Assembly (NCBI GenBank): GCA_016207605.1
Contig: JACQPJ010000036.1
Coordinates: forward strand, 1,486 to 65,485
Length of the DNA stretch: 64,000 nt
From: Elusimicrobiota bacterium
Lineage (GTDB): Bacteria; Elusimicrobiota; Elusimicrobia; UBA1565; UBA9628
Reading direction: 5' to 3'
The position numbers and the translations under genes were made by a program. This document shows, piece by piece, positions 7,467 to 33,890 of this stretch. Each line of letters starts with the position of its first letter. Within the stretch, counting starts at the first letter, position 1. The notes under the pieces are model-generated. The model did not search any database, was not told where the DNA came from, and saw only the letters and a list, made by a program, of their open reading frames with translations.

Positions 7467-9461
7467 CTAATGAGCCGCGCCCTTGCCGTTGGGTGAGGGG
7501 GCCGCCGGAGCCACCTCGACCCGGAGATCATGGCGCCGCCTCTGCTCGGCGTAGTTGCGGCGAGCCTCTCGCGGCGTGTTCCCCTCAACCGCATAGAGCG
7601 CAACAGGGGTCAATTTCAAGGGGTCCGCCTGCAGGGGCTCGCCCGGGGCCTTGGCGCCCACTCCGGACGCCCAAACGACATCGGCCTGCCGCGCGTCCTC
7701 CCAACCCCGGATGCCCAGCAAAGTTCCCGCCCGCGGCGGAAACAGGATGCGCCCGTAAATGTGCTTCATCGGCTTGGGGCTGGCCGCGGGTCGACCCCGA
7801 ATCCCGAGCGCGATCATGGCATGCTCCAGCACCAAGTTGACGCCGAAGACCTCCTGATGGAACGGAACAAACGGCCGCCCCGGCACGCGCGGGTTGGCGT
7901 CAACGACGTACATGTCCCCGTGCCCGTCAATGATTATCTCGAAATGAAAGATGCCGTCCTCAGCGCCGGCGGCCCGGGCCAGCGCGACGGCCTCCTTCAA
8001 GGCGCGCGCCTGGCGCTTGTTGCCCAGCGTGGACGGGAGGGTGAGCCCCGTCAGCGCCGCGGACCCCCTGCGGGGCCGATGATTGTCGGCGATGCGGCCG
8101 TACAAAAGCTCGCCGTCGCGCAGCGCGAAGTCAACGGAAATCTGGCGGCCCTCAAGCAGACGCGCAAACGTGATGCCGAGGTCCGGGTCAAAGGTCTCGT
8201 TATGGACCATGCCGTCGGAACGCGCGGCGGACTCCGCGTGGATCTTGCGCGCGAGCCTGCGGGCCTGCTCGCGGGCCTCGGCGACGGTGCGCACCTTGAC
8301 GACGCCGTCGGAAGAGCCCCCGGTCGCGGGCTTGAGGACGGCGGGCACGCCGACTTCCCGCAAAGCCCGCTCCAGATCGCCCTCGTCCACTTCCCCCTCC
8401 CGCAAACGGACCCTCAGGGACGCAAGCACGGGCAAGCCGGCCCTTGCGGCCAAGACCGGCAGGTTCGCCTTGTCGCGCAGGGCCTGGACCGCCTCGTAAG
8501 ACATATGACGCAAGCCCCAGCGCTGGGCCATCAGCGCCGAGACGTCCACGTCGTCTTCGACGAAGGAAAGGATGCCGTCGCCGCGGATGCCGGCGCGCTC
8601 GACCGCCTCCACGGACAAGCGCGCGAGCCGCCGGCGCCGTTCCTGGTGGGTTTCGCCGTCTTTCGCGGGAATGTCAACCCGCACGACTTTCTCCACGAAC
8701 GGTTCGGGAGGATATCTCGTGTAGATATCCTCAGCCTCGTCCGATTCACGGAGGTAAACCAGGATCACCTTGACTCCGGCGGACGTGAGCATCTCCAGGT
8801 TCTTCTGGTGCTGAGGACCGACGGCATAGCCCACGACGATGAGGACCTTGTCCTGCATGGCGGCCAGGCGCTCGCCTTGGGAAACGGGCTCGGTCTCGCG
8901 GCGCCGGTGCGCGCCGTCAAAGCCGTCGCCGATGAGGGCCGGCGGCTGTTCCGCGAAAGCTTCGAGCTGGACCTGCGCGCCCTGTTGTTCCTCGAGCGCG
9001 GGAGCGTCGGGAGCGGGAGCGGTCGCCCGAAGTGATTGGGAATCGGCGGACGCCGGACGCGCCGAACGCTGAGACCGAAGCCTCCGGCCGCTCCGCGCGA
9101 AGGCGCCGCGAGCCGTGCCCGAGGGCCGCGCCGCAACGCGGGATTCCTCCCGGCCGGTCGCCGTCAATGCCGGAGCCGGCGCGAGCTCCGCGATTTGACC
9201 CGCGGCGGCGGCCCCGGGCTGGGCGAGGACAAACGGCTCGGGCAACCCTTCGAATCCGGCGCCCAAGACAACCTCCAGCGGCGCCGCGTCCTCCAACGGC
9301 AGAGATTGAATCTCAATCGCCGGGCTTTCGGCGACGACGTTCAGCACTCGCGATTGCCCGAAAGACGCCGTCCGCGACCCCGCGAAGAGGACCGCGCCCG
9401 CGGCCCATCCCGCCGCCAGGAAACCGGAACCCCGCCGCCACGCGTTGTCTCGATGCATCAT
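7467..9461 (-). CDS. ATP-grasp domain protein with an N-terminal twin-Arg/hydrophobic export-like segment and a long Ala/Pro/Ser/Arg-rich linker
   Basis: 664 aa. Motifs: GVPAVLKPATGGSSDGVVKVRTVAEA (ATP-grasp Lys/Gly-rich loop), GIFHFEIIIDGHGDMYVVDANPRVPG (Mg/ATP-site E/D-x-N). The pre-domain is DKVLIVVGYAVG..GVKVILVY and the N-terminus is WRRGSGFLAAGWAAGAVLFAG. Confidence 0.75.
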   Translation of the reverse strand: MMHRDNAWRRGSGFLAAGWAAGAVLFAGSRTASFGQSRVLNVVAESPAIEIQSLPLEDAAPLEVVLGAGFEGLPEPFVLAQPGAAAAGQIAELAPAPALTATGREESRVAARPSGTARGAFARSGRRLRSQRSARPASADSQSLRATAPAPDAPALEEQQGAQVQLEAFAEQPPALIGDGFDGAHRRRETEPVSQGERLAAMQDKVLIVVGYAVGPQHQKNLEMLTSAGVKVILVYLRESDEAEDIYTRYPPEPFVEKVVRVDIPAKDGETHQERRRRLARLSVEAVERAGIRGDGILSFVEDDVDVSALMAQRWGLRHMSYEAVQALRDKANLPVLAARAGLPVLASLRVRLREGEVDEGDLERALREVGVPAVLKPATGGSSDGVVKVRTVAEAREQARRLARKIHAESAARSDGMVHNETFDPDLGITFARLLEGRQISVDFALRDGELLYGRIADNHRPRRGSAALTGLTLPSTLGNKRQARALKEAVALARAAGAEDGIFHFEIIIDGHGDMYVVDANPRVPGRPFVPFHQEVFGVNLVLEHAMIALGIRGRPAASPKPMKHIYGRILFPPRAGTLLGIRGWEDARQADVVWASGVGAKAPGEPLQADPLKLTPVALYAVEGNTPREARRNYAEQRRRHDLRVEVAPAAPSPNGKGAAH

Positions 9462-9581: not shown

Positions 9582-12500
9582 CTAAGGGCTCCGCGGCGCG
9601 GATTCCGCGTCGCCCAGCAGCCGCAAAAGTTGGCGCAGGGCTGCGGGCCTGTCCGTCTCCCCCACCCTCTCCACAAGCGTCTGCAGGCGCTGGCGCGATA
9701 TGCGGACCTGCCTACTGTCGCGCCCCATGGCGCGAGCCTCCATGCTCTTCGCGCGGGCCCGGAGCACCGGCGTCCCATCGCGCAGAAGCGCGCCGACCTC
9801 CCGCTCCCTCTGCGCCCTCAGATCGCCCTTCATCTCATCGATCTGGCGCGTTTCGCTGGGGTCCTCGGACCCTTGGACGCCCAGAAGAACGGGCCTGAGC
9901 CGAAGCGGCCGACTCTCTCCATCCTCCTCATCCGTGTACCCCGGCCAAAAGCCGATGCGCAAGACGAGATAATCCTGGCCCGGCATGGACCTAAAAACCG
10001 CGCTGATCAGGGCCTTGACATCCTCCTTCAAGCGCTCATAACGCGTCTTCTTTTCCTTTATGCCCGGCAGCTTATACAGCGTCGCGGCGTCATCCAAACC
10101 ATACAGCTTGAACCAGTAGTCCCAGTTCGAATCCTCCTCCGTCTGCTCTTTCATTTGGAGCGCATAGTCCTCATCGTCGCGATCGGACTTGTAGAGCCGT
10201 TTGTCGAAACCGAACTGCACGCCTTTCCCGGGAACGCGCACCGCCTCAAATTTCATGAACAACGGCTCCGCGCTGCTCTCCACGACGACTGCGCCCTTCT
10301 TTCCGAGCTTTCTTTGGAGCTCCAAGACATAATCGGCGATTTGCGCCCCCTGGTCGGGCGTGAAGATTCGCGGCTCGTCTTCTTCATTCTGGGGCTGGTC
10401 CTCGTCATCCCCTTCACGGCGTTGGTCCTCCGCTCCCGCCCGCGCTCCCTTAAATTGCTCGGCCACGAATTCCTGGGGCTTTTTGCCCAATGATGTGTGC
10501 ACCACGATGCGATTGCCGATATCCTCTCGATGATCCGTCAGCCACCGAGACAGCGTCCGCTGGACCTGGTCCCGGTTAAAGGGCGCGAGCCGGATTTTCC
10601 TTTGGACCCTCTTTTTGACCGCAGGAGCAAAGTTTTTTCTCAAGAGCGGATGTCGCTCGTTGAGGAAAGCCAGGGTGTCGGGCACCTTCACCTCATTCTC
10701 GTCCACGGCTCCGGCAAGCGCCAGCGTCCGCACCGTCAACTGGTCCACGGTCGGGCGGGTGACATCGAAGACATGGGCCACCGCCTGCGGCTTCCTCTTG
10801 TAAGTCGCCAAGACGTACTCCCCCGTCTTGGAGTTGTAGGACAGGCCTGCCGAAACGAATTGGTCCTTTTTCACGAAATCTCGCCTGTCAACCAGCAGGA
10901 AGTCGCCCGGGAAAAGCGTGCAGGCCTCGGCCAGGAGGGCCAAATTCCGCGGCGTCGGGGCGCCAAGGATGGCCACCTTCGGCTTGTCCGCGGCAGGCCG
11001 ATCGCGCAGTTTGAGGGGCGGATATCCCGATCGCCGCAGGGTCCGATCGAGCGCCCGGACCCAGGCCCTCTTGATCAAGCGACCCAAACCCTCCGTGGCC
11101 GCTTGGCGGGAGGCCACCGTGTGGGCCGTCGCGCCCATGTTCGCCTTCCATCCGAGGCCAAGGATGAGGTGCAGCTTCTGATACGGCCCCATGAACCGCA
11201 GGAATTCCTCCAATTCCTGCTCGTCGAGGCCGATCAGCCCCGCGATGATGGCATGATCCGTGGAGTGGGAGTAAACCGGCGTCCCATCCTCCAAGACGAG
11301 GCGTCCCTCGCCGTCGGGCCGCGCGCCCGTCATAACCATCACGGCGCGGGCGCTGTGGGTAAAACCGCCGGCGCGCGGATTCACCTCGACCTTGTACATA
11401 CGCCACCTATTCCCCGTTTTGCCGCGGCGCGCCGCGTTGTCCACGCCCATGAACCCGACGAGTCCATAATCCCGCCACAGCGTCTGGGCGATGACGCGAT
11501 CCCCCCTCATCATATCCGCCCGATAGGCGTCGTTGGCCGGCTGTCTCCCCCCTATGAAGACGCCGTGGTCCAAGTCCTGGTCATGGGTCGTGTGCACGAG
11601 GACCTTGCCGTTGACTTGGACCCGGAGTTGTGTGCTGGGGGCGGGGGAGACCGGGATCCAGTCCAAGAATTCCTCCACCACGGCTCCGAACTCCTTCATC
11701 TGCCGGAAATACGCTTTGCCCACCGGGCTCTTTTTCATGCGCTGCAGGGTCCGGAGGATCAATTCATAGCGCTCCTGTTCCGTGAGCGATTTGGACGCCT
11801 CCCCGCCCTGCAGGAACACGGCCACGTTGCCCAGCCCGGACACGCCGTTGTTGAGCTTCACCATCAGGCGCTTGAGTTTCGGATGCCGATGCCAGAGCGC
11901 GGCGCCCTTGCGCGCCAGGTCCGTGAGGTCGTAGATATGCTCGAACCCGTCGGCCATGTGCATGTTGAGCTCGGGATGCTGCGAGATGATCTCGCGGAAG
12001 ATCTCCCGCTGCACGCTCTTGTTGTCGAGGATGTCGACTTCCAGGGGGCCGTCCAGCGTGGTCCGCAGGCCGAAGCTGTCGCGCAGGTCGGCAATGAGCC
12101 CCCATTCGCTCTTTTGCGCTATGAAGGGAACGACCTTGACCGGATAGCCGCGGTCGGCGGCCCCGGGCTCGACCGCCGCCCGGGCTTGGGCCCGCACGGC
12201 CTGCGCCGCCTCCGCCGCTTTGGCGATCGCCTCCCGAACGGCTCGATTCTCAGGAAGCATCACCATATCGGCCAGGCTCAGATCCTTCTCGGGCAGACGG
12301 TCTCCCAACTCCTTGAACTTCGCATTGAGGCGGGCCGCCAGGGTCTCTTTCGTCGCGCGCCTCTCGCGTTGCGCGCTCTGCGCCGCCTTGGACTTCGCCT
12401 GGAGGCGGGCCTCCGGAGTCTCCGTTGCCCTGCGCTTCTCGTATTCCGCGCTCAGCGCCGCCTTGACCGGCTCCTCGAGACCGCCCGGCCACTCCGGCCG

Positions 12501-13640
12501 ATGCGCGGAGTCCTGCTCCCACAGCTCGAGCTGCTCGATCACGAGCTGGTTCCACCACTTGTAGTCGTTTCTGTTGTCGCTGAGCGCGGGCAGGCGGCCG
12601 GACTCCTCGACGCTGATGAACGTCACCTGGCTCAGGCACCTCTCGCGCTCGGCCGCGGACAGATGCCCGAACAGGTGATCCTTGACGGCCTGGCTCACCT
12701 TCATTTTCGTCACGTAGACGACATCCAAGCCGGGATCCCGCTCCACGGCATACATGAGCGCCCGGGCATCATAGGCCGGCTCGCCCTTGATGTTCTTGCG
12801 GGTCTGCTCGTCGAACGACAGGGACTGGAAATAGATGACCATCCGAGAGACCTTGTCCTTCGCCGCTTGGTCCCACGCCGAAAGGATCTCCCGCTGCTCC
12901 CAAAACTTCTCTATTTGGCTGCGAAGAATCTCCGGAAACTCCCGATATTTTCGCTGCATGTATTCAAGAAGCTTCCGCGGAAACGACCGCTCATCGGCCT
13001 TGGCCGCGCGGGCAAGCCGCGACGACTGGGCCGCGGGAGACGCGGAACGGGATGCTTCGTCTCCGAGAACCGGGTCTGCGGGAGCGCGGGTCTCGCCCTC
13101 GCCCCTTACCCCCTCCTCGCCAAACGGCCTTCTCGCGTCCTCAACGGCGTCGATCAGCGGCTGGGCATGGGCCTGCGGCTCATCCATCACCGGCTTCTCG
13201 TTGTCAACCGCACGACGCAGCTGTTCTGCCGCGCCCCGGACGAGGCGCCTCTCGCGACGTCCGCCATTGGGGGGCAATGGCTTGCCCGAACGTGCCGTGC
13301 GGGAAGCCTCATGGGCCGCAGGCCCGGCAGAGCCCGACGGCTGTGCGGCATGGAGGTAAGAATTCTGCATTTCTGCCGAGCGCGCAAAAAAATCCGTAAG
13401 CGTCCTCTCCATGGCTTCGAAATCCGTCCGAGATAGACTGTCGATGGGCACTGGAGCGGACACGGGAGGGCCGAACATGGTCCCTAAAAGCGGCATTTCA
13501 AGCCCGCCTCCCCCGAACCTGTAGACGCCGAGTTCCCCGCCCTCAACGGCAAAAGCGCGCGGACCCGCAAGCGTCAGGCCGAGGAGAACGAGCCAAGCCC
13601 AGACAGCGGGACTGCGCGTCAATGCCGCTCGACGTGCCAC
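9582..13640 (-). CDS. very large exported protein with a PGM1-like (pre-ATP-grasp plus ATP-grasp) peptide-ligase module and a second, weaker ATP-grasp-like C-terminal module
   Basis: 1352 aa with a GTG start. Signal-like N-terminus: RRAALTRSPAVWAWLVLLGLTLAGPRAFA. Module 1: VVYVTKMKVSQAVKDHLFGHL..TFISVEE, KLNNGVSGLGNVAVF, PSTQLRVQVNGKVLVHTTHDQ, GFMGVDNA..MYKVEVNPRAGGFTH. The C-terminal part (NRIVVHTSLGKKPQEF, AVVVESSAEP) parallels the C-terminus of the 13740..17081 protein. Confidence 0.7.
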   Translation of the reverse strand: MARRAALTRSPAVWAWLVLLGLTLAGPRAFAVEGGELGVYRFGGGGLEMPLLGTMFGPPVSAPVPIDSLSRTDFEAMERTLTDFFARSAEMQNSYLHAAQPSGSAGPAAHEASRTARSGKPLPPNGGRRERRLVRGAAEQLRRAVDNEKPVMDEPQAHAQPLIDAVEDARRPFGEEGVRGEGETRAPADPVLGDEASRSASPAAQSSRLARAAKADERSFPRKLLEYMQRKYREFPEILRSQIEKFWEQREILSAWDQAAKDKVSRMVIYFQSLSFDEQTRKNIKGEPAYDARALMYAVERDPGLDVVYVTKMKVSQAVKDHLFGHLSAAERERCLSQVTFISVEESGRLPALSDNRNDYKWWNQLVIEQLELWEQDSAHRPEWPGGLEEPVKAALSAEYEKRRATETPEARLQAKSKAAQSAQRERRATKETLAARLNAKFKELGDRLPEKDLSLADMVMLPENRAVREAIAKAAEAAQAVRAQARAAVEPGAADRGYPVKVVPFIAQKSEWGLIADLRDSFGLRTTLDGPLEVDILDNKSVQREIFREIISQHPELNMHMADGFEHIYDLTDLARKGAALWHRHPKLKRLMVKLNNGVSGLGNVAVFLQGGEASKSLTEQERYELILRTLQRMKKSPVGKAYFRQMKEFGAVVEEFLDWIPVSPAPSTQLRVQVNGKVLVHTTHDQDLDHGVFIGGRQPANDAYRADMMRGDRVIAQTLWRDYGLVGFMGVDNAARRGKTGNRWRMYKVEVNPRAGGFTHSARAVMVMTGARPDGEGRLVLEDGTPVYSHSTDHAIIAGLIGLDEQELEEFLRFMGPYQKLHLILGLGWKANMGATAHTVASRQAATEGLGRLIKRAWVRALDRTLRRSGYPPLKLRDRPAADKPKVAILGAPTPRNLALLAEACTLFPGDFLLVDRRDFVKKDQFVSAGLSYNSKTGEYVLATYKRKPQAVAHVFDVTRPTVDQLTVRTLALAGAVDENEVKVPDTLAFLNERHPLLRKNFAPAVKKRVQRKIRLAPFNRDQVQRTLSRWLTDHREDIGNRIVVHTSLGKKPQEFVAEQFKGARAGAEDQRREGDDEDQPQNEEDEPRIFTPDQGAQIADYVLELQRKLGKKGAVVVESSAEPLFMKFEAVRVPGKGVQFGFDKRLYKSDRDDEDYALQMKEQTEEDSNWDYWFKLYGLDDAATLYKLPGIKEKKTRYERLKEDVKALISAVFRSMPGQDYLVLRIGFWPGYTDEEDGESRPLRLRPVLLGVQGSEDPSETRQIDEMKGDLRAQREREVGALLRDGTPVLRARAKSMEARAMGRDSRQVRISRQRLQTLVERVGETDRPAALRQLLRLLGDAESAPRSP

Positions 13641-13650
13641 GCGTAAATCG

Positions 13651-13727
13651 TATCTAGATCCGCCCGCGGGCGACAGGGCCTTTGGTCCCAGGCCGGGCTG
13701 GAGAAAAGACCTAGATCCTCCTAGGTC
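13651..13727 (-). promoter_or_regulatory. degenerate copy of the shared cis-module: GATCTAGATA (13651-13660), GGGACCAAAGGCC (13677-13689), GACCTAGGAGGATCTAGGTC (13708-13727)
   Basis: Read directly in the 99-nt spacer between the genes at 13740..17081 and 9582..13640. It is less conserved than the other copies. Confidence 0.35.
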
Positions 13728-13739
13728 GAAAGTCCCATG

Positions 13740-16700
13740 TCACGGCCTCGTCCAGACCGCGCGCGAGCGCGCCGCCGGGCGGCCTCCGGCGTCGGCGCGG
13801 GCGGACATCGCGGCCACGCGCTGGACGGCCAGAGCCTCCGCCTCTTCGCGCTGCGGCGCCAGGTCCGCGCCCCAGCGCGCGCGCCGCACCTCCGGGCTAC
13901 GATCCCGATGGCCGAGAAGGTCCAGGAGCACCCAGCGCGGGGCTGCGCCATTGCGCATGAGGGCGACCCGGACGCGAAGGAAGTCCGTGCGCACGTTGGC
14001 CGGCAGGGTGCGCTCCTCGTAGGCGCGCACGGCCGCCGCGGCCTGCTCGATCGCGGATTGGAGCGCGGCCTCGGCCTTCCGCCAATAGGACTCGTTCTCA
14101 GGATGCCCGAACCCTCCGGGGTGGGGGTCAAAGCCGCGCAGGCCGCTCGCATCGGTCGGCTCGAGCAAGGGGCGACGCCGCCCCTCGCTGGAGCGCGCCC
14201 GGTAGAGCATCCGCACGGGACTTATGTCCACCCGTCCCGAAGGATGAATGGCCGCGGGAACGTCGAACACGTAGTCCCAGACCTTGCCGCTCTCCACCAT
14301 GACGGCGCCGGAACTGCCGAGTTCGTCGAGAAGGTCCAGGACGTACTCCACGATCTCCGCCAGGCGTCCGCGCGCGCCCTGGAAAACCCGTTCCTGGCCG
14401 CCCTGGGACGTGCGGATGACGATGGAATCCTCGACCCGCTCCCCGGAGCGCGCGATCCAATCCGCCAAAGCCCCGCGGATGCCGCGGCGGGAAGTCCGCG
14501 TCATGTCCGCGCCGATCCCGGCGGCTCCCGGGCGCAGGAGATCCTGGACGGCATGCCGGGAACCCGGGATGAACAGAGTCGTGGGAACGTCAACCCCCGC
14601 GGCGGCGGCCAGGCCTCGCGCCAGCAGGCGGTCCTCGACGGTTCTTCCCGCCACGGGGATGGCCAAGCCCGAGCCGAGCTCCGCGCCGGCCTGATCGGCT
14701 GCCACGTAATAGGAAGCGCGCAGCGGCCGCCGATAAGAGGCCAGCACGAAAGCATCCGCGGCGGGGTCATAGCGCAGGCTGCGGCGCACGCCCAGGCGCT
14801 CGCCGCCCTTCGACAGCCAGCCGTTCTCCAGGACCAGGTGAACGCGGCCTCCCGATGCCTTGGCGAGAGCCAGGTTCTGGAAGGTCAGGGCCCCTCGCAC
14901 GACCTCGACATCACCCTCGAAGGGGTCGGCGTCGCGCGGCTCCTCGAGGCGGTCGCCGGCCGCCCGGAGGACCAAGCCCAGCTCGTACTCCCTCAGCCAT
15001 TCCAGGAAGCGGCGTTTGAGATCGGCCACCCCTTGAGCGTCTCCAGCGATGGCTACGTAGCTGATCTTGCCGGCCGTCTGGGGAGAGAAAATGGCCCGGG
15101 GGTTGTCCATGACGACGCCCGCCTTGGGCCCGGGGTCGAAAGCCAGGCCGGAGCGATGGAATGCCGCGAGGAACTCCGAGCGGCTCGTCAAGGCCAGGCC
15201 GGGGAATCCATCCTCGCCCGTGTAGGCCTCATAAGCGACAAGTCCCCCCCCATCAAGACGCTCCAGAAGGCCCTCCTCGTTGACCCGGGCTCCGGTGAGG
15301 TGCATGGCGAGTCGGAACGGATAGGTGGTGCCCGTCTTGCGCAGGTTGGTCTCGACATAGACGAGCTTCCAACCGCTTTCCAGCTCCTCGGCGGAGACTT
15401 CCATCCCGTAGCGATCCCGAGCAATCTGGGCGGGTATGGCCATGAAATCAACCCCAAGGTTGCCCAAGACGCCCTGCTCAGCGAGAGCGCGCCCAACGCG
15501 CAGGCCGGCCTCGTGCAGGGCACGGCGGTAGCGGACATCGGCCGGGTAGCGCGCTCCCACCCAAGCGCCGTTCTTGAGGATCTGATCATGAGTGGATTCC
15601 ACAAAAACCTGCCGCCCCGGGCCGATGCGTAATTGGATGCTCGGAGAGGGGTAATGCGCGGCTCCCTCGATGAACTGCTCCAGGACGCCCCCCATGCCCT
15701 GGAACGTCTGGAAATAGGCCCTATGCCTATGGCTGGCCGCCTCTCGAGCCAGCTTTGTCGCGATCGTGCCGGGCTCATTGGGCCCGCGGAAAACGAGGAA
15801 ACGATTCCCCTCCCCGGAAGCGCCGTCCTCCGCCTTCAGCACGATCTTCTTATCTCCCGTCGCCCTCCGGAGACGAACAATGGCGTCAGTCAAGGCGTCG
15901 AACGTCCTGCCGCCGGGAATGCCGTTGATGCCCCTGACGACGGTCAAACCCACGCGCTCGGCCAGCGCCCGCCCGATGCTCTTGTGGCCCAAAACCCAAT
16001 GCTCCGCGAGCGCGCCGTAGACCGGAAGACCCAGAAATTCGGCGACGGCCTCCACTGCGGACGTGACGTTGTAGGGATCCACGAAAGCGCTGAAGCCGCG
16101 CTCCCGAAATTCCGCGACCGCGCGGGCAACCGCTCCTAGAACATCCGCGCGGCGGAGCAGTTTTTGCGTGAAGCTCTTCCGCGGATCGGCGTCGTCCCGC
16201 TCGCCGAAGCTGTAGAAGCGGATCCGGTCGCGAGTTCCCGAGGGATCCGGCAAGCCGTGGAGGAGATGCCCCTGGAGATCCTCCTCCATGGGCAGCGACG
16301 TCACCATGATCGCGGCTTCATCGGGATCGGCCGCCGCCAGAGCCAATGCCGCGGACCGCCCCTCGGAATGCCGGGAATAAGGAGTCTTGGTCATGACCGC
16401 GTTGAGCTCCTGGCCAGGGAGGATCACGCGCACCCTGCGGGGGCTGGATTGCACCTCCGCCAAGGCGGCTTCCCGTTCCAAGGCTTTGCGATGCAGCGCG
16501 AGCGCGGCGGCATCCGCCTCCACGACGGAAGCCTCCGACGGCCCCCTGGAATCGCCGCGCCCGTCAATGACCGCGTCCGCGACGGCCGCTCCTGCCTCCG
16601 AAGGCAAGCGCGCGGCGCCGCCGAGCGCCCCCAGGGCCTGGGCGGCCTCCTCGGGCGCCGCGCCTGCGGGAACACGCACAGCTTCGCCGCCCTGAGCGCC

Positions 16701-17081
16701 TTCGCGCCCGCCCCGCAGGACGCGCAGCCGCGGAGGGGCGGGGACGGGCTCCGCTACGTGGCGCGACGCCGCGCCGTGAAGATGCGGTCCCGCAAGGACC
16801 CCGGCCATGGCTGCGGCCGCGGGCAGGCCCGCCGCGCTGACGGACAGCGGCGGCACCGCCAGAAGCTGAAGAACCGTCGGCAAATAGGTGAAAGTCACCG
16901 GTTCTGAAAACGCGTCCGCGGACGCCGCAAGACCGACGGGCTGCTCCACGATCCCCTCGGGAACGGAACGGCCCTCCAGCGCCCCGGGGGCGGCGTCCGC
17001 CTGCGGCCGTCCCGTCAGCAGCAGCGCGCCGGCCAGCAGGACTCTCAACCCTCTGAAGGCTGATCTGGTTCGGCGGCCCAA
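13740..17081 (-). CDS. very large exported protein, paralogous in architecture to 9582..13640: a PGM1-like ATP-grasp module plus a second ATP-grasp-like module
   Basis: 1113 aa with a TTG start. N-terminus: GRRTRSAFRGLRVLLAGALLLTGRPQADA. Module 1: AIMVTSLPMEEDLQGHLLHGL..RIRFYSFGE, KIVLKAEDGASGEGNRFLVF, PSPSIQLRIGPGRQVFVESTHDQ, LGVDFMAI..KLVYVETNLRKTGTTYPF. Module 2: VPTTLFIP, DSIVIRTSQGGQERVF, GAVMVESGKV, DFLRVRVAL..RWVLLDL. Confidence 0.7.
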   Translation of the reverse strand: MGRRTRSAFRGLRVLLAGALLLTGRPQADAAPGALEGRSVPEGIVEQPVGLAASADAFSEPVTFTYLPTVLQLLAVPPLSVSAAGLPAAAAMAGVLAGPHLHGAASRHVAEPVPAPPRLRVLRGGREGAQGGEAVRVPAGAAPEEAAQALGALGGAARLPSEAGAAVADAVIDGRGDSRGPSEASVVEADAAALALHRKALEREAALAEVQSSPRRVRVILPGQELNAVMTKTPYSRHSEGRSAALALAAADPDEAAIMVTSLPMEEDLQGHLLHGLPDPSGTRDRIRFYSFGERDDADPRKSFTQKLLRRADVLGAVARAVAEFRERGFSAFVDPYNVTSAVEAVAEFLGLPVYGALAEHWVLGHKSIGRALAERVGLTVVRGINGIPGGRTFDALTDAIVRLRRATGDKKIVLKAEDGASGEGNRFLVFRGPNEPGTIATKLAREAASHRHRAYFQTFQGMGGVLEQFIEGAAHYPSPSIQLRIGPGRQVFVESTHDQILKNGAWVGARYPADVRYRRALHEAGLRVGRALAEQGVLGNLGVDFMAIPAQIARDRYGMEVSAEELESGWKLVYVETNLRKTGTTYPFRLAMHLTGARVNEEGLLERLDGGGLVAYEAYTGEDGFPGLALTSRSEFLAAFHRSGLAFDPGPKAGVVMDNPRAIFSPQTAGKISYVAIAGDAQGVADLKRRFLEWLREYELGLVLRAAGDRLEEPRDADPFEGDVEVVRGALTFQNLALAKASGGRVHLVLENGWLSKGGERLGVRRSLRYDPAADAFVLASYRRPLRASYYVAADQAGAELGSGLAIPVAGRTVEDRLLARGLAAAAGVDVPTTLFIPGSRHAVQDLLRPGAAGIGADMTRTSRRGIRGALADWIARSGERVEDSIVIRTSQGGQERVFQGARGRLAEIVEYVLDLLDELGSSGAVMVESGKVWDYVFDVPAAIHPSGRVDISPVRMLYRARSSEGRRRPLLEPTDASGLRGFDPHPGGFGHPENESYWRKAEAALQSAIEQAAAAVRAYEERTLPANVRTDFLRVRVALMRNGAAPRWVLLDLLGHRDRSPEVRRARWGADLAPQREEAEALAVQRVAAMSARADAGGRPAARSRAVWTRP

Positions 17082-17096: not shown

Positions 17097-18629
17097 CTAC
17101 CTCGCCGCCATCCAGCCCAGAACGGCGTAGCCGGCGAGGGCAAATGCCGCCGCGGCCATGGCGTATGGAAGCTGGGTGCGGATGTGCTCCATGTGATCGG
17201 TATTGGCCGCCAGGGAGGAAAGCACGGAGGTGTCGGAAATGGGAGAGCAATGGTCGCCGAAGGCGCCACCGCTGAGCACCGCGCCGGCAGCCAGGAATGG
17301 ATTCATGCCCGCGCCCAGCGCCAGCGGGACGGCAATCGGCATCATGATGGCCCAGACGCCCCAAGACGTCCCCATGGCAAACGACAGAATCGCCGAAATA
17401 AGGAAAGTCAGAACCGGAATCCAGCCGGCGACGATGTAGGACCGGGTCGCCTCGACAATAAAGGCCGAAGCGCCCAAGCCCTCGGGGGCCGGCGCGCGCA
17501 TCAGGTCGCTGAGGGTCACCGCCAGGAGGATGATCACGGCGCCGATGATCGTGGACTTCCCCCCTTCGAAGGCAAAGTCCAGGAATTCCTTGGCCGTCAT
17601 CAAACCTTTGCGAACGTACAGGATCAACGCCGTCAAAAGCCCGAGCGCGAACGTCGTGGACATGCCGGTCAGGGAGTCCACGCCGGTCTTGGGCAAGCCG
17701 GGATGCCACCTCGTGATGAATCCATCCCAAACCCCCAAGGCCAGCAGGAAGAGGACGGAAACGGTCAACGGGATCATCATGTCGGAGACCCCGCCGCCTC
17801 GGACATGCGCGAGGGCCTTCTTTTCCGCCTCGGGGTCAAGCATGGGCGAGGACCCAGGCTTGTGCAGGAGCCCTTGGGTCTTGACCCGCCGCTCGGCCTC
17901 CTTCATCGGACCGAAGTCTGGAATCGCGCCGAGCGCAAGCAGGACGATGAACCCCAGGACGGCCCAGCAATAGAGATTGTAGGGCATGGTCCGCAGGAAG
18001 CCGACCAAGCCTTCGCCGGCGCGGATGGAAGGGATGTTTTCCTCCAGCAAGGTGATCATAAAGGCGATCCAGCCCGAGACCGGGATCAATGCCTTCGTCG
18101 GCGCCGCGGCCGAGTCGCAGCAGAAGGCAAGCTTTTCCCGAGAGATCCTCATGCGGTCGAAGACCGGCTTCATGGCCGTGCCGCTGACCAAGATGCCGAA
18201 ATAGGCGCTGGTGAAGATGGATATCCCGATCGCAAAACAAGTCAGCACGGCCTCCGCTTCGCTGCGGATGCGCCGAGCCGCGCGCTCGGCGAAGGCCCGG
18301 CTGCCCCCGGACTTCTCGATGACGGCGATGAACGCGCCCAACAGAACGACGCTAAGAAGGAGTTGGCCGCGGCTGGAGTCCTTGGCAAGACCCACTCCCT
18401 TGAGCGTCGCCGACGCCGCATGTCCCGCCAAAGTGGAAAGCGTCTGAGGCAGGAGATAGACCAAGGCATGAACGGCTCCATGGACGCGGTCGTCTATCAC
18501 GACGACGCTCAGCGCGACGCCGACCAGCAGGGACTCGATCACCCGCCGGGTTTTCACGGCCATGGCAACGGCCGCGGCCGCAGGCAGAAGCGAGAGCCAG
18601 CCATAATGCACGACGGCGGCGTCAGGCAT
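17097..18629 (-). CDS. NhaC-family Na+/H+ antiporter-type transporter (many members carry amino or organic acids)
   Basis: Polytopic membrane protein typical of the NhaC/C4 antiporter family. I prefer Met-8 (18629), which is preceded by GGAGG 6 nt upstream; the track start is 18650. Its stop lies only 15 nt before the start of gene 13740..17081. Confidence 0.75.
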   Translation of the reverse strand: MPDAAVVHYGWLSLLPAAAAVAMAVKTRRVIESLLVGVALSVVVIDDRVHGAVHALVYLLPQTLSTLAGHAASATLKGVGLAKDSSRGQLLLSVVLLGAFIAVIEKSGGSRAFAERAARRIRSEAEAVLTCFAIGISIFTSAYFGILVSGTAMKPVFDRMRISREKLAFCCDSAAAPTKALIPVSGWIAFMITLLEENIPSIRAGEGLVGFLRTMPYNLYCWAVLGFIVLLALGAIPDFGPMKEAERRVKTQGLLHKPGSSPMLDPEAEKKALAHVRGGGVSDMMIPLTVSVLFLLALGVWDGFITRWHPGLPKTGVDSLTGMSTTFALGLLTALILYVRKGLMTAKEFLDFAFEGGKSTIIGAVIILLAVTLSDLMRAPAPEGLGASAFIVEATRSYIVAGWIPVLTFLISAILSFAMGTSWGVWAIMMPIAVPLALGAGMNPFLAAGAVLSGGAFGDHCSPISDTSVLSSLAANTDHMEHIRTQLPYAMAAAAFALAGYAVLGWMAAR

Positions 18630-18709
18630 GAAGCCTCCTCGGAAATCCATTCACAAACAGCAGGTGCCGGATTTTATCAAGTTTCTGCGGTTGGCGACGC
18701 ATCGGCGTC

Positions 18710-21700
18710 TCATGAGCGCTGCCGGGAATCCAAAGGCACCCAAACGGGCGGCTCCGGCGGGCGTCCGTTGCCGGACGCTCGCGCTTGCCCGCGGCGAGCC
18801 TTCAATCCCATCCAGTAGGGCGCGACGTACCGCTCGAACGCGCCGATGATCAGCGCAACGGCGTAGACCCCGGCAAACCACGCCAGCACGGGCAGAAAAT
18901 TCTCCGGCGTAAGATGTCCCAGGAGCGTCTCCTGATCCTCCGGCGCCTGAAATGGCTTGCCGTAAAGAATCCCATAAAGGAGGAAGCTGACCAAGGGAAG
19001 CTGGAACATCAGCAGAGCGGAGTGAAAAATCGTGACGCTGGCGGAGGCGTCCCGGCCATTTTCGTCCGTGCTTTGCGTCCGCAGGGCCCGAAGCATGAGG
19101 TTGTTGAGGCCGAGGTCGGTGGCTGTGCCGTAGTAGAAGTACATGAAGCAGCCCGCGGCCGCGGCGAGCAGCCCCAGCACGGGATGGCCGAACGCGATGA
19201 GCCCGAGGGCGGCCGGCAGGAACCCCATCCAAGTCACGGCCTGAAATGCGAAGGAAAAGAACGGCTTATAGTAGTCGTCCCAGAGCCGTTCTTCAGGAAC
19301 GGCACCCGTGGGGCCCCGCCAGCCGACGATGGAGCTCGGCGCCAGCTTCTGACAGAATGCGCATAATTGATAAGCCCAAAATCGCCTGTCCCGCCAGCTC
19401 TGGCCGGGGGGCGGCAAAGGCTGAATCCCCAAACTCATGATCATGGCGCCAAGAAAACCGACGCCCCCAATGGCGCCCCCGAAGACGGAGCACCACAGCA
19501 TGGCGTGCCCGGGATGCAAGGAGGCCGCCGCCGCGTAGGCGATCGTCGGCACGAGCACGACGATGAGGGCGACCTGAACGTTTTTATAGGCAATGTTGGC
19601 AAAGACCCTGACTTTTAGAATCTTGCTTCTCCATGTGGCGACGGCGCCGTGCACCGCGGCGTTCAAGCGTCGTCCCAAAGGCTCCCGGTTGCCCATGTCG
19701 GGCTTGACGCGCAAATCCCGCGAGCGGACATACATCATCCACGTGGTGATGACGAACGCCGCGGCGATTCCCAGCGTGATCAGGGGCCCCAGAACGGCGT
19801 TCAGCTGAGGGTAGCCCTTCACGAGCAGGACGAGCGGAAGGCTGAGAAACCAGCGGCCAAAAACCTGCCCGATGGCCTGCGTGGCCTGGAGACGCACGTT
19901 GGGGGCGCTCTGGTCGGCCTCGTCCAGCGGCAGGTGGAACTGGATGGAGCTCTGCACCCAAAGCGCCTGGTTATAGGAAATCATGGCGCCCGGAGTGACG
20001 ATGAGCCCATCCAAAAAGGCCAAGACGAGGATCGGATTGTAGAGATATCCATACCAGGCGACGGGCGGCTCGATCAAGCCGGGCAGGCAGAAGGCCACGA
20101 CCGCCATCACGCTCCAGCAGGCGGCACGTCCCGCCGAACTCAGCCACAAAAGCGTCTGAATCCGCACCAGGGACAGAACAGGGCCGCTCAACAGCGCGCC
20201 GATGCTGCAGCCCAGAAAACTGTAGGCCCAATAGAAGTTCGTCTGCAGCGTCGGCCCGCCCAGAGCCAGCATGCCGTAAATCATCATCGCCTGAACGACG
20301 ACGAAGCCCAGGCTGCGCCACCACTCCATCTTTTCGAGGATCGGGTAGACCTCGCGGGCCAACTGCAGGCTCGCTTCATAGCGCAGCTTGAACGCGTCCA
20401 GATGGAAGATCGGAAGGAAGGGCCGCTCCTGCGTGACGACCGGCTCCTTGCCGCCCGGGGGTCTGATCGTCAAGGCAACGGGCCCCACCGCGTCCATCCG
20501 ACGCGACGCGGCCTCGACATCCGGGGCCTCCACGCGCAGGGTGGCGACGACGTCGGACGGCTGGACCGCGTCGCCGGCCCTCTTGAGCAGGCGCGCGGTC
20601 CCGTCTGCGACGAGACGCTCCAAGCCCGCGATGCTTTCCACGAACCCGGCGCTTGGGGCGACGAGGGACCATAGCCCGACCACGGAGTCCCGTTTGGACG
20701 CCTTGGCCGGGGCGACTCCGAAGAGAGAGAGTATCTCGTCGCTGACCGAAGGAACCTCGTCGCGCCGGCGGAAGCCGGGGTCCCGGCGGCCCTCGTCCAC
20801 GGCAAGACCGGACGGCTTGGGACCCAGGCCCGTGACCGAAATGTTCACCCGATACGTCCCGGACCAGATCCCGGCAGCCTCCAGCGCCGCCAGCCCGACG
20901 GCGACGAGCTTGTCAATGTGAGCTTTCTGCTCCAGGTTCTGCCGGGCGAACTCCTCCCGCTGCGCCTCGGTCTGTTCAGGAAAGGGCGGGAATTCCCTGG
21001 CCGCGGAGGACGGCATCTGCGACGGGGAAACCGCCGCGGAGCGGTCATCGCTCACGTCCCCGTGGGAGAGAGACGCCACCTGAAGCTTGCCCCCGATGGT
21101 CTGCACGCCGAGATAGAGATCCACCTGGGGCCCATCGTCGCGTCCCGACCTCACCAGATAGATTTCGCCCGCGGGCACCCCGCGGCCGCGAAGGGTCCGC
21201 CACGCCGCGACGGCCTCCAGGCCATCCCGCGCGTCTATGCCGGGCTCGGAGCCGCGGCGGGAATGCAGGGTGACCATCCCGTTGACCTCGTCATAGGCCC
21301 GCGCCACGTCCGCCTCACGAAGCAGGTGGTCGCGGAACGTCATGCTGAGTTCGCGCACCGGGGACAATGCCCTCAGCATCTGCAGCGGATCGGCGACGGC
21401 CTCAACGGCTCGGCTGGAGTTGCCGAGCACGCCGCGACCGCGGCTGAGTCCGCGAAGATGATCAACGACCGCTCCGCCAAGCTCCTGGAAGCCGGGCGCC
21501 GGCCACACCGCGACGGGGCCCGGCGCGCGCGCCGCGGCCCGGGAGACCGACTCAACGGCGTCGGCGACGCCCCGCGCTTCCCGCGCTTCGACCGGCGCCT
21601 CAATGAACTGTTCTGGGCCAAGCAAGTCCCGGTACCGCGCCCCTCGGACCGCGGTGTCCGCGAATTTGACCGTCAATCCGCGCTCGCGCGAAAGCGCCAA

Positions 21701-33817: not shown

Positions 33818-33827
33818 GCGCCGCCGG

Positions 33828-33890
33828 GGCCGCGACCCTTCGGGCTCGGCACAGACGCGTCTGAGGAAAGCCTCTTAGCGTCTAGCGTCC
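33828..33890 (-). repeat. 56-bp structured repeat family, copy B (inverted orientation), between convergent OPT and M28 genes; overlaps the last ~5 codons and stop of the M28 gene
   Basis: The reverse complement reads GACGCTAAGAGGCTTTCCTCAGACGCGTC TGTGCC GAGCCCGAAGGGTCGCGGC. Confidence 0.7.

What the first reader, a model, noticed from the sequence alone, without database searches (positions are those of the whole stretch)
9582..17081. Two neighbouring PGM1-like peptide-ligase giants, each apparently carrying a second ATP-grasp-like module
- Both proteins contain the pre-ATP-grasp pattern: (V/I)xVT..hxxxhLxGL..RhxFxSxxE.
- Both contain a Gly-rich loop: KLNNGVSGLGN in one, KAEDGASGEGN in the other.
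- Both contain PSxQLRh..G.hxVxxTHDQ, and E(V/T)N(P/L)R..G(F/T)T(H/Y).
- From memory I associate these with the PGM1 (pheganomycin peptide ligase) family.
- C-terminal to this, both have a further ~400-aa region with a Rossmann-like start and ATP-grasp-like strands. Examples are IVIRTSQGGQERVF with AVMVESGKV, and IVVHTSLGKKPQEF with AVVVESSAEP.
- The 1352-aa protein also has Lys/Glu-rich insertions and visibly lower GC, so the two have diverged considerably.
- Tandem ligase modules suggest successive ligation steps on one scaffold.
Basis: partly seen in the sequence, partly recalled or inferred. Interest (0 to 1): 0.65.

Follow-up and report, generated by a model that had tools for sequence, protein, structure and literature searches.

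The report
Ligase giants with dead second module
Two neighbouring giant bacterial proteins each join an apparently working amide-bond-forming enzyme (nearest studied relative BesA) to a second copy of the same general fold that has lost its catalytic residues, an arrangement found nowhere else in 1.8 billion representative proteins; what it makes is unknown.

Summary
ORFs 13740-17081 (1113 aa, "A1") and 9582-13640 (1352 aa, "A2"), both on the minus strand, are paralogs, and every quoted motif is present.

- **Module 1** is a BesA/PGM1-related ATP-grasp ligase with all catalytic residues intact. A profile of it hits BesA (PDB 8yi6) at E 6.5e-62.
- **Module 2** is also ATP-grasp. Its predicted structure matches only ATP-grasp enzymes in Foldseek. 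It is homologous (hhalign 98.9%, E 3e-17) to a rare module, "X". X is otherwise seen only in Elusimicrobiota giants built as signal, MFS transporter, X, then an L-amino-acid-ligase (LAL) module.
- **Module 2 looks catalytically dead.** In both paralogs the ATP-binding Lys is Arg or His, the Mg-binding Asp is Arg, and the E-x-N motif is lost.

"Successive ligations" is therefore not supported. One active ligase plus one pseudo-module is more likely.

The surrounding row holds seven ATP-grasp-like modules in five proteins. I judge three active and four degenerate. The same locus also has a transporter, an M14 carboxypeptidase and a gamma-glutamyl hydrolase. Six of the row's proteins start with signal-peptide-like ends, which is unexplained.

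I call this a new variant of a known kind. Substrate and product are unknown.

The parts
13740..17081 (-). Gene A1, 1113 aa from the longest ORF (the database call is 1102 aa, starting at the TTG 11 codons in)
   Evidence: GC3 is about 0.8 from the first codon onward.
16989..17081 (-). A1 aa 1-31: signal-peptide-like N-terminus (five Arg, then VLLAGALLL, then ..ADA/AP)
   Evidence: Read directly from the sequence. This is a heuristic call only; no SignalP was run.
16440..16988 (-). A1 aa 32-214: Ala/Gly/Pro-rich low-complexity linker (24% Ala)
   Evidence: for composition. No family hit.
14985..16439 (-). A1 module 1 (aa 215-699): BesA/PGM1-related ATP-grasp ligase. K416, D545 and E577-x-N579-x-R581 are intact.
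   Evidence: NCBIfam NF042917 E 3.7e-21 over aa 229-614. PDB 8yi6 E 4e-14. Profile A3 vs 8yi6 E 6.5e-62. Pfam ATP-grasp_IQCH 7e-6 and PGM1_C 0.026. Residues located.
13803..14984 (-). A1 module 2 (aa 700-1093): degenerate ATP-grasp of the 'X' family. The Lys position is R890, the Mg-Asp position is R1038, and E-x-N is D1054-x-L1056.
   Evidence: AF2 model has pLDDT 63 and pTM 0.59. Foldseek top 50 are all ATP-grasp enzymes, E down to 3e-8. hhalign vs 19 X modules gives Prob 98.9, E 3.3e-17. Alignments; residues.
9582..13640 (-). Gene A2, 1352 aa from the longest ORF. The start is uncertain: GTG 13640 gives a signal-like N-terminus but has no RBS; ATG 13496 has GGAGG upstream; the NCBI call is 1201 aa.
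   Evidence: The coding signature is weak in the first ~210 codons.
11019..12926 (-). A2 module 1 (aa 239-874): BesA/PGM1-related ATP-grasp ligase. K595, D734 and E752-x-N754-x-R756 are intact. The N-domain is aa 260-343 and the core is aa 538-791.
   Evidence: NF042917 E 3e-14. A profile built without A2 hits aa 260-343 (1.3e-5) and aa 538-791 (2.2e-39). Alignment A3.
12030..12611 (-). A2 insertion aa 344-537 (Lys/Glu/Arg/Ala-rich) inside module 1. It contains a 75-bp tandem duplication at 12311-12466, i.e. two 25-aa repeats (EKRRATETPEARLQAK / RERRATKETLAARLNAK).
9705..11018 (-). A2 module 2 (aa 875-1312): degenerate ATP-grasp of the 'X' family. The Lys position is H1048, the Mg-Asp position is R1228, and E-x-N is G1254-x-Q1256. 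An acidic insert lies at aa 1069-1096.
   Evidence: 31% identical to A1 module 2. Whole-library HMMER hits to X modules at 8e-8 to 6e-4..
13708..13727 (-). Terminator-like hairpin (8-bp stem, then TTTTCT) starting 13 nt after the A1 stop codon, in the A1-A2 spacer
   Evidence: It is one of 20 sites where 17 are expected by chance, so the position is suggestive only.
7467..9461 (-). Context gene LAL664: signal-like N-terminus, low-complexity linker, then an intact L-amino-acid-ligase-type ATP-grasp (K377, E508, D521-x-N523-x-R525)
   Evidence: Pfam ATP-grasp_4 and LAL_C2. BacD 3wo1 E 1.6e-8. 41% identical to the C-terminal module of giant P0008. Residues.
18710..25938 (-). Context genes B2 (18710-22408, 1232 aa) and B1 (22405-25938, 1177 aa). 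They are paralogs, each built as signal-like N-terminus, low-complexity linker, degenerate LAL-like ATP-grasp, then a ~540-aa multi-pass membrane domain.
   Evidence: One search shows they are paralogs. hhalign of the soluble domain vs an LAL profile gives Prob 96.8, E 2.5e-10 over 383 columns. Hydrophobic segments. No Pfam hit.
17097..18650 (-). Context gene: NhaC/ArcD/DcuC-type transporter lying between the B and A genes
   Evidence: Pfam Na_H_antiporter 4e-40. NCBIfam hits.
5653..7458 (-). Context gene: M14 zinc carboxypeptidase with a signal-like N-terminus, 8 nt downstream of LAL664
   Evidence: Pfam Peptidase_M14 3e-20..
4907..5656 (+). Context gene, convergent (3' end to 3' end) with the M14 gene: class-I glutamine amidotransferase / C26 gamma-glutamyl hydrolase (PuuD-like), 249 aa
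   Evidence: Gene call and Pfam C26/GATase. NCBIfam gamma-glutamyl-GABA hydrolase 5e-23.

Best explanation
A1 and A2 are paralogous two-module proteins. Each has a signal-like N-terminus, a ~200-aa low-complexity tether, a catalytically competent BesA/PGM1-type ATP-grasp amide ligase, and then a catalytically dead ATP-grasp-derived module (X').

**Shown**
- The module boundaries.
- The family of module 1 and its intact Lys, Asp and E-x-N-x-R residues.
- The ATP-grasp fold of module 2 and its homology to the X module of the Elusimicrobiota giants (signal, MFS, X, LAL).
- Loss of the Lys and of all three Mg-ligand positions in both paralogs.

**Inferred**
- Module 1 activates a carboxylate as an acyl-phosphate and joins it to an amine of an amino acid or peptide. 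A gamma-glutamyl-type bond is plausible, given the BesA kinship and the adjacent PuuD-like gamma-glutamyl hydrolase and M14 carboxypeptidase.
- X' does not ligate. It more likely serves as a docking or regulatory module.

**Speculative**
- In the giants, X sits in tandem with an LAL-type module next to a membrane transporter. In this locus the two B proteins carry a degenerate LAL-like module fused to a membrane domain.
- So X' of each A protein may dock on the LAL' module of a B protein. That would bring the active ligase to the membrane exporter: two A proteins, two B proteins, plus one free active ligase (LAL664).
For: **Module 1**
- NF042917 (BesA) E 3.7e-21 for A1 and 3e-14 for A2. PDB 8yi6 E 4e-14. 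Profile A3 vs 8yi6 E 6.5e-62 over 460 positions.
- The nearest database relatives are 'peptide ligase PGM1-related' proteins carrying PF18105.
- Invariant K, GxSGxGN, PSxQ, THDQ, GVD and ExNxR.

**Module 2**
- A whole-library HMMER search (1.84e9 representatives) found only 8 foreign hits. All are X modules in giants or fragments of them.
- hhalign gives Prob 98.9, E 3.3e-17 over 337 columns. It aligns IVIRTS with VVVKPS, DFLRVRVAL with DFIGLDVML, and VLLDLLGH with VIEVNDH.
- 18 of 19 X modules keep K, D and E-x-N. A1 has R/R/D-x-L and A2 has H/R/G-x-Q.
- The AF2 model places these residues on the expected strands. Foldseek returns only ATP-grasp enzymes in the top 50.
- Module 2 is at least as conserved between the paralogs (31%) as module 1 (23-26%). 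That argues for retained function rather than decay.

**Context**
- The genes form a tight co-directional row with gaps from -4 to 120 nt.
- The B soluble domain is LAL-like at E 2.5e-10 with changed catalytic positions.
- LAL664 is intact and 41% identical to the LAL module of a giant.
- One giant (P0007) also has a degenerate X beside a retained LAL region.
Against: - No experiment supports any of this, and there is no second genome with this architecture. No covariation or conservation test of the docking idea is possible.
- The mapping of catalytic positions in X rests on motif position and a medium-confidence model (pLDDT 63; Foldseek TM only 0.3-0.4). X has no significant sequence match to any solved ATP-grasp.
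- Arg at the Lys position of A1 could still bind ATP.
- All the A, B and LAL664 proteins have signal-peptide-like N-termini. If these are real and cleaved, the ligases would be outside the cytoplasm, away from ATP. That does not fit a simple cytoplasmic ligase model.
- The substrate inference is weak. It rests on neighbours only, and the closest module-1 relative sits beside a basic-amino-acid decarboxylase instead.
Confidence: 0.6

Rival explanations
1. Both modules are active ligases and carry out two successive ATP-dependent ligations on one scaffold, building a tri- or oligopeptide.
For: Both modules have the ATP-grasp fold. In the Elusimicrobiota giants two apparently intact ATP-grasp modules (X and LAL) do sit in tandem, so tandem active modules exist in this wider family.
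Against: In both A1 and A2 the phosphate-binding Lys is R or H, the Mg-ligand Asp is Arg, and E-x-N is D-x-L or G-x-Q. 18 of 19 homologous X modules keep all four residues. The Gly-rich loop (GPxFHSGxGV) is also missing.
Confidence: 0.1
2. Module 2 is not a ligase but still binds a nucleotide or a substrate. It would act as an allosteric sensor or substrate-holding domain for module 1 in the same chain, with no role in docking to the B proteins.
For: The hinge strand GAV(M/V)VES, the DxL..R...A..V.VP motif and the N-domain are conserved between the paralogs and with X. R890 in A1 could still contact phosphate.
Against: A2 has His at that position, and both paralogs place Arg where the Mg-binding Asp should be. 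The region between the hinge and the C-domain is poorly conserved and modelled at low confidence.
Confidence: 0.2
3. The whole row is a decaying, non-functional remnant of a horizontally acquired cluster, and the degenerate modules are simply on the way to loss.
For: GC3 of the row (0.77-0.86) is lower than in the flanking housekeeping genes (0.89-0.96). Fic and DUF4143 genes lie nearby. Four of the seven modules are degenerate.
Against: Five ORFs of 664-1352 aa are uninterrupted and keep a coding GC3 signature. The paralog pairs have diverged to 25-31% identity yet keep collinear modules. The same Asp-to-Arg change is shared by both X' modules, so it is old and has been retained.
Confidence: 0.07

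Closest known systems
BesA, L-propargylglycine--L-glutamate ligase of Streptomyces cattleya (PDB 8yi6; NCBIfam NF042917)
   Same: Module 1 of A1 aligns with BesA residues 18-379. The profile of both module 1 sequences plus two relatives hits it at E 6.5e-62. Shared features are the Lys, HDQ, PAD..R, GVDF and E-x-N-L-R-K motifs. A C26 gamma-glutamyl hydrolase lies next to the row; I connect this with gamma-glutamyl chemistry from my own knowledge of the Bes pathway.
   Different: The score is 75 bits against an equivalog cutoff of 750, so this is not an ortholog. BesA is a ~475-aa single-module protein. A1 and A2 add a signal-like N-terminus, a 200-aa linker and a ~400-aa second ATP-grasp-derived module. 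Substrates are unknown.
PGM1, pheganomycin peptide ligase (Noike et al. 2015, as cited in PMC8939145), and the 'peptide ligase PGM1-related protein' family
   Same: The closest database relatives of module 1 (P0002, P0003; 31% identity) carry Pfam PGM1_C, and NCBI names them PGM1-related. A1 has a sub-threshold PGM1_C match at aa 643-691.
   Different: No sequence-level hit to a PGM1 structure from A1, from the module-1 profile or from P0003. No gene for a short precursor peptide is evident; the intergenic gaps are only 8-120 nt. No guanidino-acid biosynthesis genes are present.
Uncharacterised Elusimicrobiota giants of ~1600-1730 aa, e.g. MEK7859031.1 (P0014). They are built as signal-like N-terminus, low-complexity linker, MFS, X ATP-grasp, then LAL-type ATP-grasp.
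   Same: Module 2 of A1 and A2 is homologous to their X module. The window's LAL664 and the B soluble domains are homologous to their LAL module. B1 and B2 share their N-terminal 'SPGLxxYxAxA' motif. A peptidase gene lies nearby in both cases: M28 there, M14 here.
   Different: In the giants everything is in one chain, and X keeps K, D and E-x-N in 18 of 19 sequences. Here the parts are spread over five genes, X is fused to a BesA-like ligase that the giants lack, and X and the B-type LAL modules are degenerate. The B membrane domain is not detectably MFS.
L-amino acid ligases such as BacD (PDB 3wo1) and BL00235 (3vot)
   Same: The neighbouring LAL664 matches them (E 1.6e-8; Pfam LAL_C2). A ligase paired with an exporter is the logic of dipeptide-antibiotic clusters (my own knowledge).
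   Different: This applies to the neighbour, not to A1 and A2. LAL664 carries an extra signal-like N-terminus and linker.
Catalytically inactive ATP-grasp/TTL-like domains, e.g. human TTLL12 (PMC3520985)
   Same: A precedent for an ATP-grasp-type domain that is retained without the expected ligase activity (abstract seen).
   Different: Eukaryotic, unrelated in sequence, and not fused to an active ATP-grasp ligase.

Membership tests
ATP-grasp superfamily (module 1 of A1 and A2) | Significant sequence match to a solved ATP-grasp enzyme across the N, central and C domains | tested here: met
   A1 aa 227-612 vs 8yi6, E 4e-14. Profile A3 vs 8yi6, E 6.5e-62. A2 core aa 538-791, E 2.2e-39, plus N-domain aa 260-343, 1.3e-5, against a profile built without A2.
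ATP-grasp superfamily (module 1 of A1 and A2) | Phosphate-binding Lys before a Gly-rich loop, plus the Mg ligands Asp and E-x-N (with Arg) | tested here: met
   A1 has K416, GASGEGN, D545 and E577/N579/R581. A2 has K595, GVSGLGN, D734 and E752/N754/R756. All are invariant in alignment A3.
BesA equivalog (NCBIfam NF042917) | Score at or above the curated equivalog cutoff (750 bits) | tested here: not met
   75.4 bits for A1 and 52.6 bits for A2. They are relatives, not orthologs.
PGM1-related peptide ligases | Pfam PGM1_C (PF18105) C-terminal domain at or above the gathering score | tested here: not met
   A1 aa 643-691 gives E 0.026 and 14.5 bits against a cutoff of 22.5. A2 has no hit. The nearest relatives P0002 and P0003 do carry it.
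PGM1-related peptide ligases | Structural superposition on the PGM1 crystal structure | not tested
   Both structure-prediction jobs went to module 2 and to the B domain. By sequence, no PGM1 chain was hit at E<=1.
PGM1-related peptide ligases | A ribosomal precursor peptide or peptide substrate encoded nearby | tested here: inconclusive
   The intergenic gaps in the row are 8-120 nt, which leaves no room for a separate small gene. No dedicated small-ORF search was run.
ATP-grasp superfamily (module 2, X') | ATP-grasp fold | tested here: met
   AF2 pLDDT 63, pTM 0.59. 275 Foldseek PDB hits at E<=1e-3. The top 50 are all ATP-grasp enzymes (Ddl, PurK, VanA, pyruvate carboxylase) at prob 1.00, but TM is only 0.3-0.4.
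ATP-grasp superfamily (module 2, X') | Catalytic Lys and the Mg ligands (Asp, E-x-N) | tested here: not met
   A1 has R890, R1038 and D1054-x-L1056. A2 has H1048, R1228 and G1254-x-Q1256. The X modules have K, D and E-x-N in 18 of 19 sequences.
Module X of the Elusimicrobiota MFS-X-LAL giants (unnamed family) | Profile-level homology over the whole module | tested here: met
   Whole-library E-values of 7.8e-8 to 6.4e-4 over the first ~200 positions. hhalign Prob 98.9, E 3.3e-17 over 337 columns, including the C-terminal strands.
   Module 2 lacks them in both paralogs.
Internal duplication (module 2 derived from module 1) | Detectable profile similarity between the two modules | tested here: not met
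   hhalign of X against module 1 gives Prob 0.9, E 0.057, for a 64-column local match only.

The most novel reading that the evidence does not exclude
The row encodes a membrane-associated, possibly extracytoplasmic, multi-ATP-grasp machine. Dead ATP-grasp modules (X' on A1 and A2, LAL' on B1 and B2) would act as matched docking pairs that copy the X-LAL tandem of the Elusimicrobiota giants. They would assemble three active ligases (A1, A2, LAL664) on two transporter-like membrane domains, so that a gamma-glutamyl-type peptide or polyamide is made and exported in one step and then trimmed by the M14 and C26 peptidases. That would be a new way of building a ligase assembly line, from pseudoenzyme adaptors rather than carrier domains.
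Probability: 0.15. Interest if true: 0.75.

Novelty: new variant of a known kind. Interest (0 to 1): 0.5.

Why it matters
BesA/PGM1-type ligases are of interest for natural-product biosynthesis and as biocatalysts for peptide bonds. Here such a ligase is permanently fused to a pseudo-ATP-grasp module. The locus mixes three intact and four degenerate ATP-grasp modules with membrane domains and peptidases.

If the dead modules are adaptors, this would show how ATP-grasp ligases can be organised into multi-enzyme, membrane-coupled systems without carrier proteins.

It also links a singleton locus to a recurrent but unstudied family of 1600-aa MFS/ATP-grasp giants in Elusimicrobiota. That gives two entry points to the same unknown chemistry.

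The signal-peptide-like N-termini on ATP-dependent enzymes are a separate puzzle worth a topology experiment.

Against this, it is one metagenome-derived instance with no known product, so the immediate impact is modest.

Tried and rejected
- **Word-indexed homolog searches.** Full-length A1, and A1 with the linker trimmed, returned only A1 itself plus two PGM1-related proteins at 31% identity. Low-complexity words dominate the candidate set. A search with the X alignment returned only two fragments.
- **Search for the architecture elsewhere.** A GTDB species-representative scan for A1 found no relative. A metagenome scan with the B soluble-domain alignment found none. tblastn against plasmids hit module 1 only; no record has the C-terminal module.
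- **Pfam and PDB on module 2.** Pfam on the isolated module 2, the A2 module 1 and the B domains gave nothing at E<=10. A PDB sequence search with the X profile gave nothing at E<=10.
- **Internal duplication.** The idea that module 2 is a diverged copy of module 1 is rejected. X against an LAL profile is also not significant (Prob 8). B against X is not significant.
- **Structure of the B2 soluble domain.** The model is poor (pLDDT 48), and its Foldseek hits are weak (PurT 1.7e-4, RizA at rank 18, then Rossmann folds). I rely on hhalign instead.
- **Defence-system reading.** There are no PADLOC hits for A1, A2, B1, B2, LAL664 or M14. Only the Fic gene resembles SoFic/PDC-S04.
- **Conserved partners near the giants.** No homologs of A module 1, M14, C26 or B were found there. 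The neighbours are M28, a Clp-like protease, a ceramidase-like protein and AddAB-like genes.
- **Literature.** No paper was found on BesA-type fusions, MFS-LAL fusions or the SRA run.
- **Taxonomy.** NuoD, NuoF and NuoH of the window are singletons at 90% identity, with source names withheld. The organism stays unidentified.
- **Separate origin for A2.** Lower GC as a sign of foreign origin is rejected, because GC3 is the same as in A1.

Full report
**1. What is at the coordinates**

The window is high-GC (~69%) chromosomal DNA. It carries complex I genes, ETF, an acyl-CoA carboxyltransferase and other housekeeping genes.

The finding covers two adjacent minus-strand ORFs. A1 is 13740-17081 (1113 aa) and A2 is 9582-13640 (1352 aa).

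A1 and A2 are paralogs. BLASTP gives E 6e-29 and 26% identity over one collinear stretch that spans the end of module 1 and most of module 2.

The A2 start is uncertain:
- GTG 13640 gives a signal-like N-terminus but has no ribosome-binding site.
- ATG 13496 has GGAGG 10 nt upstream.
- The NCBI call starts 151 codons in.
- The coding signature is weak in the first ~210 codons.

**2. Module 1**

A1 aa 229-614 matches the NCBIfam BesA model at E 3.7e-21, and A2 aa 643-791 matches at 3e-14. Both score far below the equivalog cutoff.

A1 aa 227-612 aligns with the BesA crystal structure 8yi6 at E 4e-14. A four-sequence profile (A1, A2, P0002, P0003) hits 8yi6 at E 6.5e-62 over 460 positions.

Among 5.8 billion clustered proteins, the nearest relatives are only 31% identical. 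They carry Pfam PGM1_C, and NCBI names them 'peptide ligase PGM1-related protein'.

A profile built without A2 shows that A2's module 1 is split. The N-domain is aa 260-343 and the core is aa 538-791. Between them lies a ~190-aa Lys/Glu/Arg/Ala-rich insertion, which contains a 75-bp tandem duplication.

The phosphate-binding Lys, the Gly-rich loop, the Mg-ligand Asp and E-x-N-x-R are invariant. On sequence grounds module 1 looks active in both proteins.

PGM1 itself was never hit by sequence, and the PGM1_C match in A1 is sub-threshold. 'BesA/PGM1-related' is therefore the accurate label, with BesA as the closest characterised enzyme.

**3. Module 2**

The C-terminal regions (A1 aa 700-1113, A2 aa 875-1352) are 31% identical. 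They have no Pfam, NCBIfam or PDB sequence match.

A full HMMER pass over 1.84 billion representative proteins found only ten proteins at E<=1e-3. Two of them are the window's own.

The other eight are 1250-1730-aa giants or fragments of them. In the full-length ones, the matched stretch lies between an MFS domain and an LAL-type ATP-grasp.

Twenty such loci were recovered from species-representative genomes, all Elusimicrobiota MAGs.

In these giants the matched module ('X') carries textbook ATP-grasp motifs: NDKLLTR..GV.VPAT, VVVKPSGPxFHSGxGV, GAVLID, DFIGLDVML and VIEVNDH.

hhalign of the A1/A2 pair against 19 X modules gives Prob 98.9 and E 3.3e-17 over 337 columns, up to and including the E-x-N strand.

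An AlphaFold2 model of A1 aa 700-1093 (pLDDT 63, pTM 0.59) retrieves only ATP-grasp enzymes among the top 50 PDB matches. These are Ddl, VanA, PurK and pyruvate carboxylase, with E down to 3e-8 and prob 1.00, although TM is only 0.3-0.4.

It is not a copy of module 1, since hhalign between the two is not significant.

**4. Module 2 is degenerate**

| Position in X (kept in 18 of 19 sequences) | A1 | A2 |
|---|---|---|
| Lys | R890 | H1048 |
| Mg-ligand Asp | R1038 | R1228 |
| Glu of E-x-N | D1054 | G1254 |
| Asn of E-x-N | L1056 | Q1256 |

The Gly-rich loop is also gone.

The Asp-to-Arg change is shared by both paralogs, so it predates their split.

Module 2 is no less conserved between the paralogs than module 1 (31% vs 23-26%). 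It therefore appears to be maintained for a non-catalytic role.

One giant (P0007) shows the same kind of decay in X (R, T, D-x-S) while keeping its LAL region.

This removes the basis for 'successive ligation steps'.

**5. Surroundings**

A1 and A2 sit in a tight co-directional row, in the order B1, B2, NhaC-type transporter, A1, A2, LAL664, M14 carboxypeptidase. The gaps run from -4 to 120 nt. A PuuD-like C26 gamma-glutamyl hydrolase lies convergent with the M14 gene at that end of the row.

- **LAL664** is an intact L-amino-acid-ligase-type ATP-grasp. BacD matches at E 1.6e-8. It is 41% identical to the LAL module of giant P0008.
- **B1 and B2** are paralogs. Their soluble domain is LAL-like by hhalign (Prob 96.8, E 2.5e-10, 383 columns) but has altered catalytic positions, for example TLHS where LAL664 has VLKP. 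A ~540-aa multi-pass membrane domain with no family match follows.

The row thus holds seven ATP-grasp-like modules in five proteins. I judge three active (A1 module 1, A2 module 1, LAL664) and four degenerate.

The parts of the Elusimicrobiota giants are all here, but redistributed. Those parts are the signal-like N-terminus, the low-complexity linker, the membrane domain, X and LAL. A BesA-like ligase has been added.

B1 and B2 even share the giants' N-terminal 'SPGLxxYxAxA' motif.

**6. Mechanism proposed**

- *Shown:* the architecture and the residue states.
- *Inferred:* module 1 is the working ligase, using acyl-phosphate chemistry as in the ATP-grasp family. The BesA kinship and the adjacent gamma-glutamyl hydrolase and carboxypeptidase make an amino-acid or peptide substrate with a gamma-glutamyl-type bond plausible.
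- *Speculative:* X' docks on the LAL' module of a B protein, recreating the X-LAL pairing of the giants. This would bring the ligase to the membrane domain for coupled export.

Rival readings are an allosteric or substrate-binding module, two active modules, and a decaying cluster. They are weighed in the structured fields.

**7. Unexplained**

A1, A2 (with the longest ORF), B1, B2, LAL664 and M14 all begin with signal-peptide-like segments. All but M14 follow this with ~150-210 aa of Ala/Pro/Gly-rich sequence.

Taken at face value, this would place ATP-dependent ligases outside the cytoplasm. No predictor or experiment was available to settle it.

**8. Novelty**

The fusion of a BesA/PGM1-type ligase with an X-type pseudo-ATP-grasp was found nowhere else:
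- not among 1.84 billion representative proteins;
- not in 185,579 species genomes;
- not in 72,556 plasmids.

The enzyme kinds are known. The combination and the pseudo-module logic are new, so I call it a new variant of a known kind. Function remains unproven and rests on a single assembled lineage whose housekeeping proteins are themselves singletons.

Noticed in passing
window 5653-25938 (-): the N-termini of M14, LAL664, A2, A1, B2 and B1: All six proteins start with signal-peptide-like segments (Arg-rich, then a hydrophobic run, then AxA-like). All except M14 follow this with ~150-210 aa of Ala/Pro/Gly-rich low-complexity sequence. That is odd for ATP-dependent ligases.
   Followed up: partly
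window 22300-22408 and 25800-25938 (-); L002-L018 giants, first ~30 aa: B1 and B2 share an N-terminal motif 'L..SPGLPCY(H/Q)AMA' with the Elusimicrobiota giants (LSPGLTGYEAIAA, LAPGLGPYRACAN, and others). The giants' profile hits B2 aa 9-46 and B1 aa 19-52 at domain E ~1e-3. It may be an undescribed sorting signal.
   Followed up: partly
window 18710-25938 (-): B1 and B2 are giants in their own right. Each has a degenerate LAL-type ATP-grasp (hhalign E 2.5e-10) fused to a ~540-aa multi-pass membrane domain with no Pfam or NCBIfam match.
   Followed up: partly
window 5653-27482 compared with the flanks: GC3 of the cluster genes is 0.77-0.86, against 0.89-0.96 in the flanking housekeeping genes. 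The whole row is compositionally atypical and may be an acquired island.
   Followed up: no
window 12311-12466: A 75-bp tandem repeat (2.1 copies, 77% match) lies inside the A2 insertion and encodes two 25-aa repeats. The insertion therefore grew at least partly by local duplication.
   Followed up: yes
window 13708-13727 (-): A terminator-like hairpin with a T-run sits 13 nt after the A1 stop codon, in the 99-nt spacer before A2. The overall site count is not above chance.
   Followed up: no
window 26028-27482 (-), 37002-38159 (+), 35511-36680 (+): Two Fic-domain genes are present. The first resembles the SoFic/PDC-S04 defence candidates and 'mobile mystery protein B'. A DUF4143/AAA_14 ATPase lies near the cluster.
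   Followed up: no
window 31667-35452; L010 14894-16156: An OPT oligopeptide transporter and an M28 peptidase lie ~6 kb from the cluster. An M28 peptidase is also the conserved downstream neighbour of the Elusimicrobiota giants, in 5 or more loci.
   Followed up: partly
L022 1166-5037: The closest relative of module 1 (P0002, JGI metagenome) lies directly downstream of a 752-aa Orn/Lys/Arg decarboxylase. This hints that some members of the family act on amines or polyamines.
   Followed up: no
P0007 (Logan contig, 1269 aa), X module ~aa 470-925: This giant has independently lost the X catalytic residues (FVIRPS, GVTVM, IDISDH) while keeping the region homologous to the LAL module.
   Followed up: partly
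window 45742-48573 (-): A 943-aa ORF whose Proton_antipo_M domain covers only aa 582-869. Its codon-position GC profile is unusual (0.86/0.62/0.75). The long N-terminal extension may be an over-called start or an unusual fusion.
   Followed up: no
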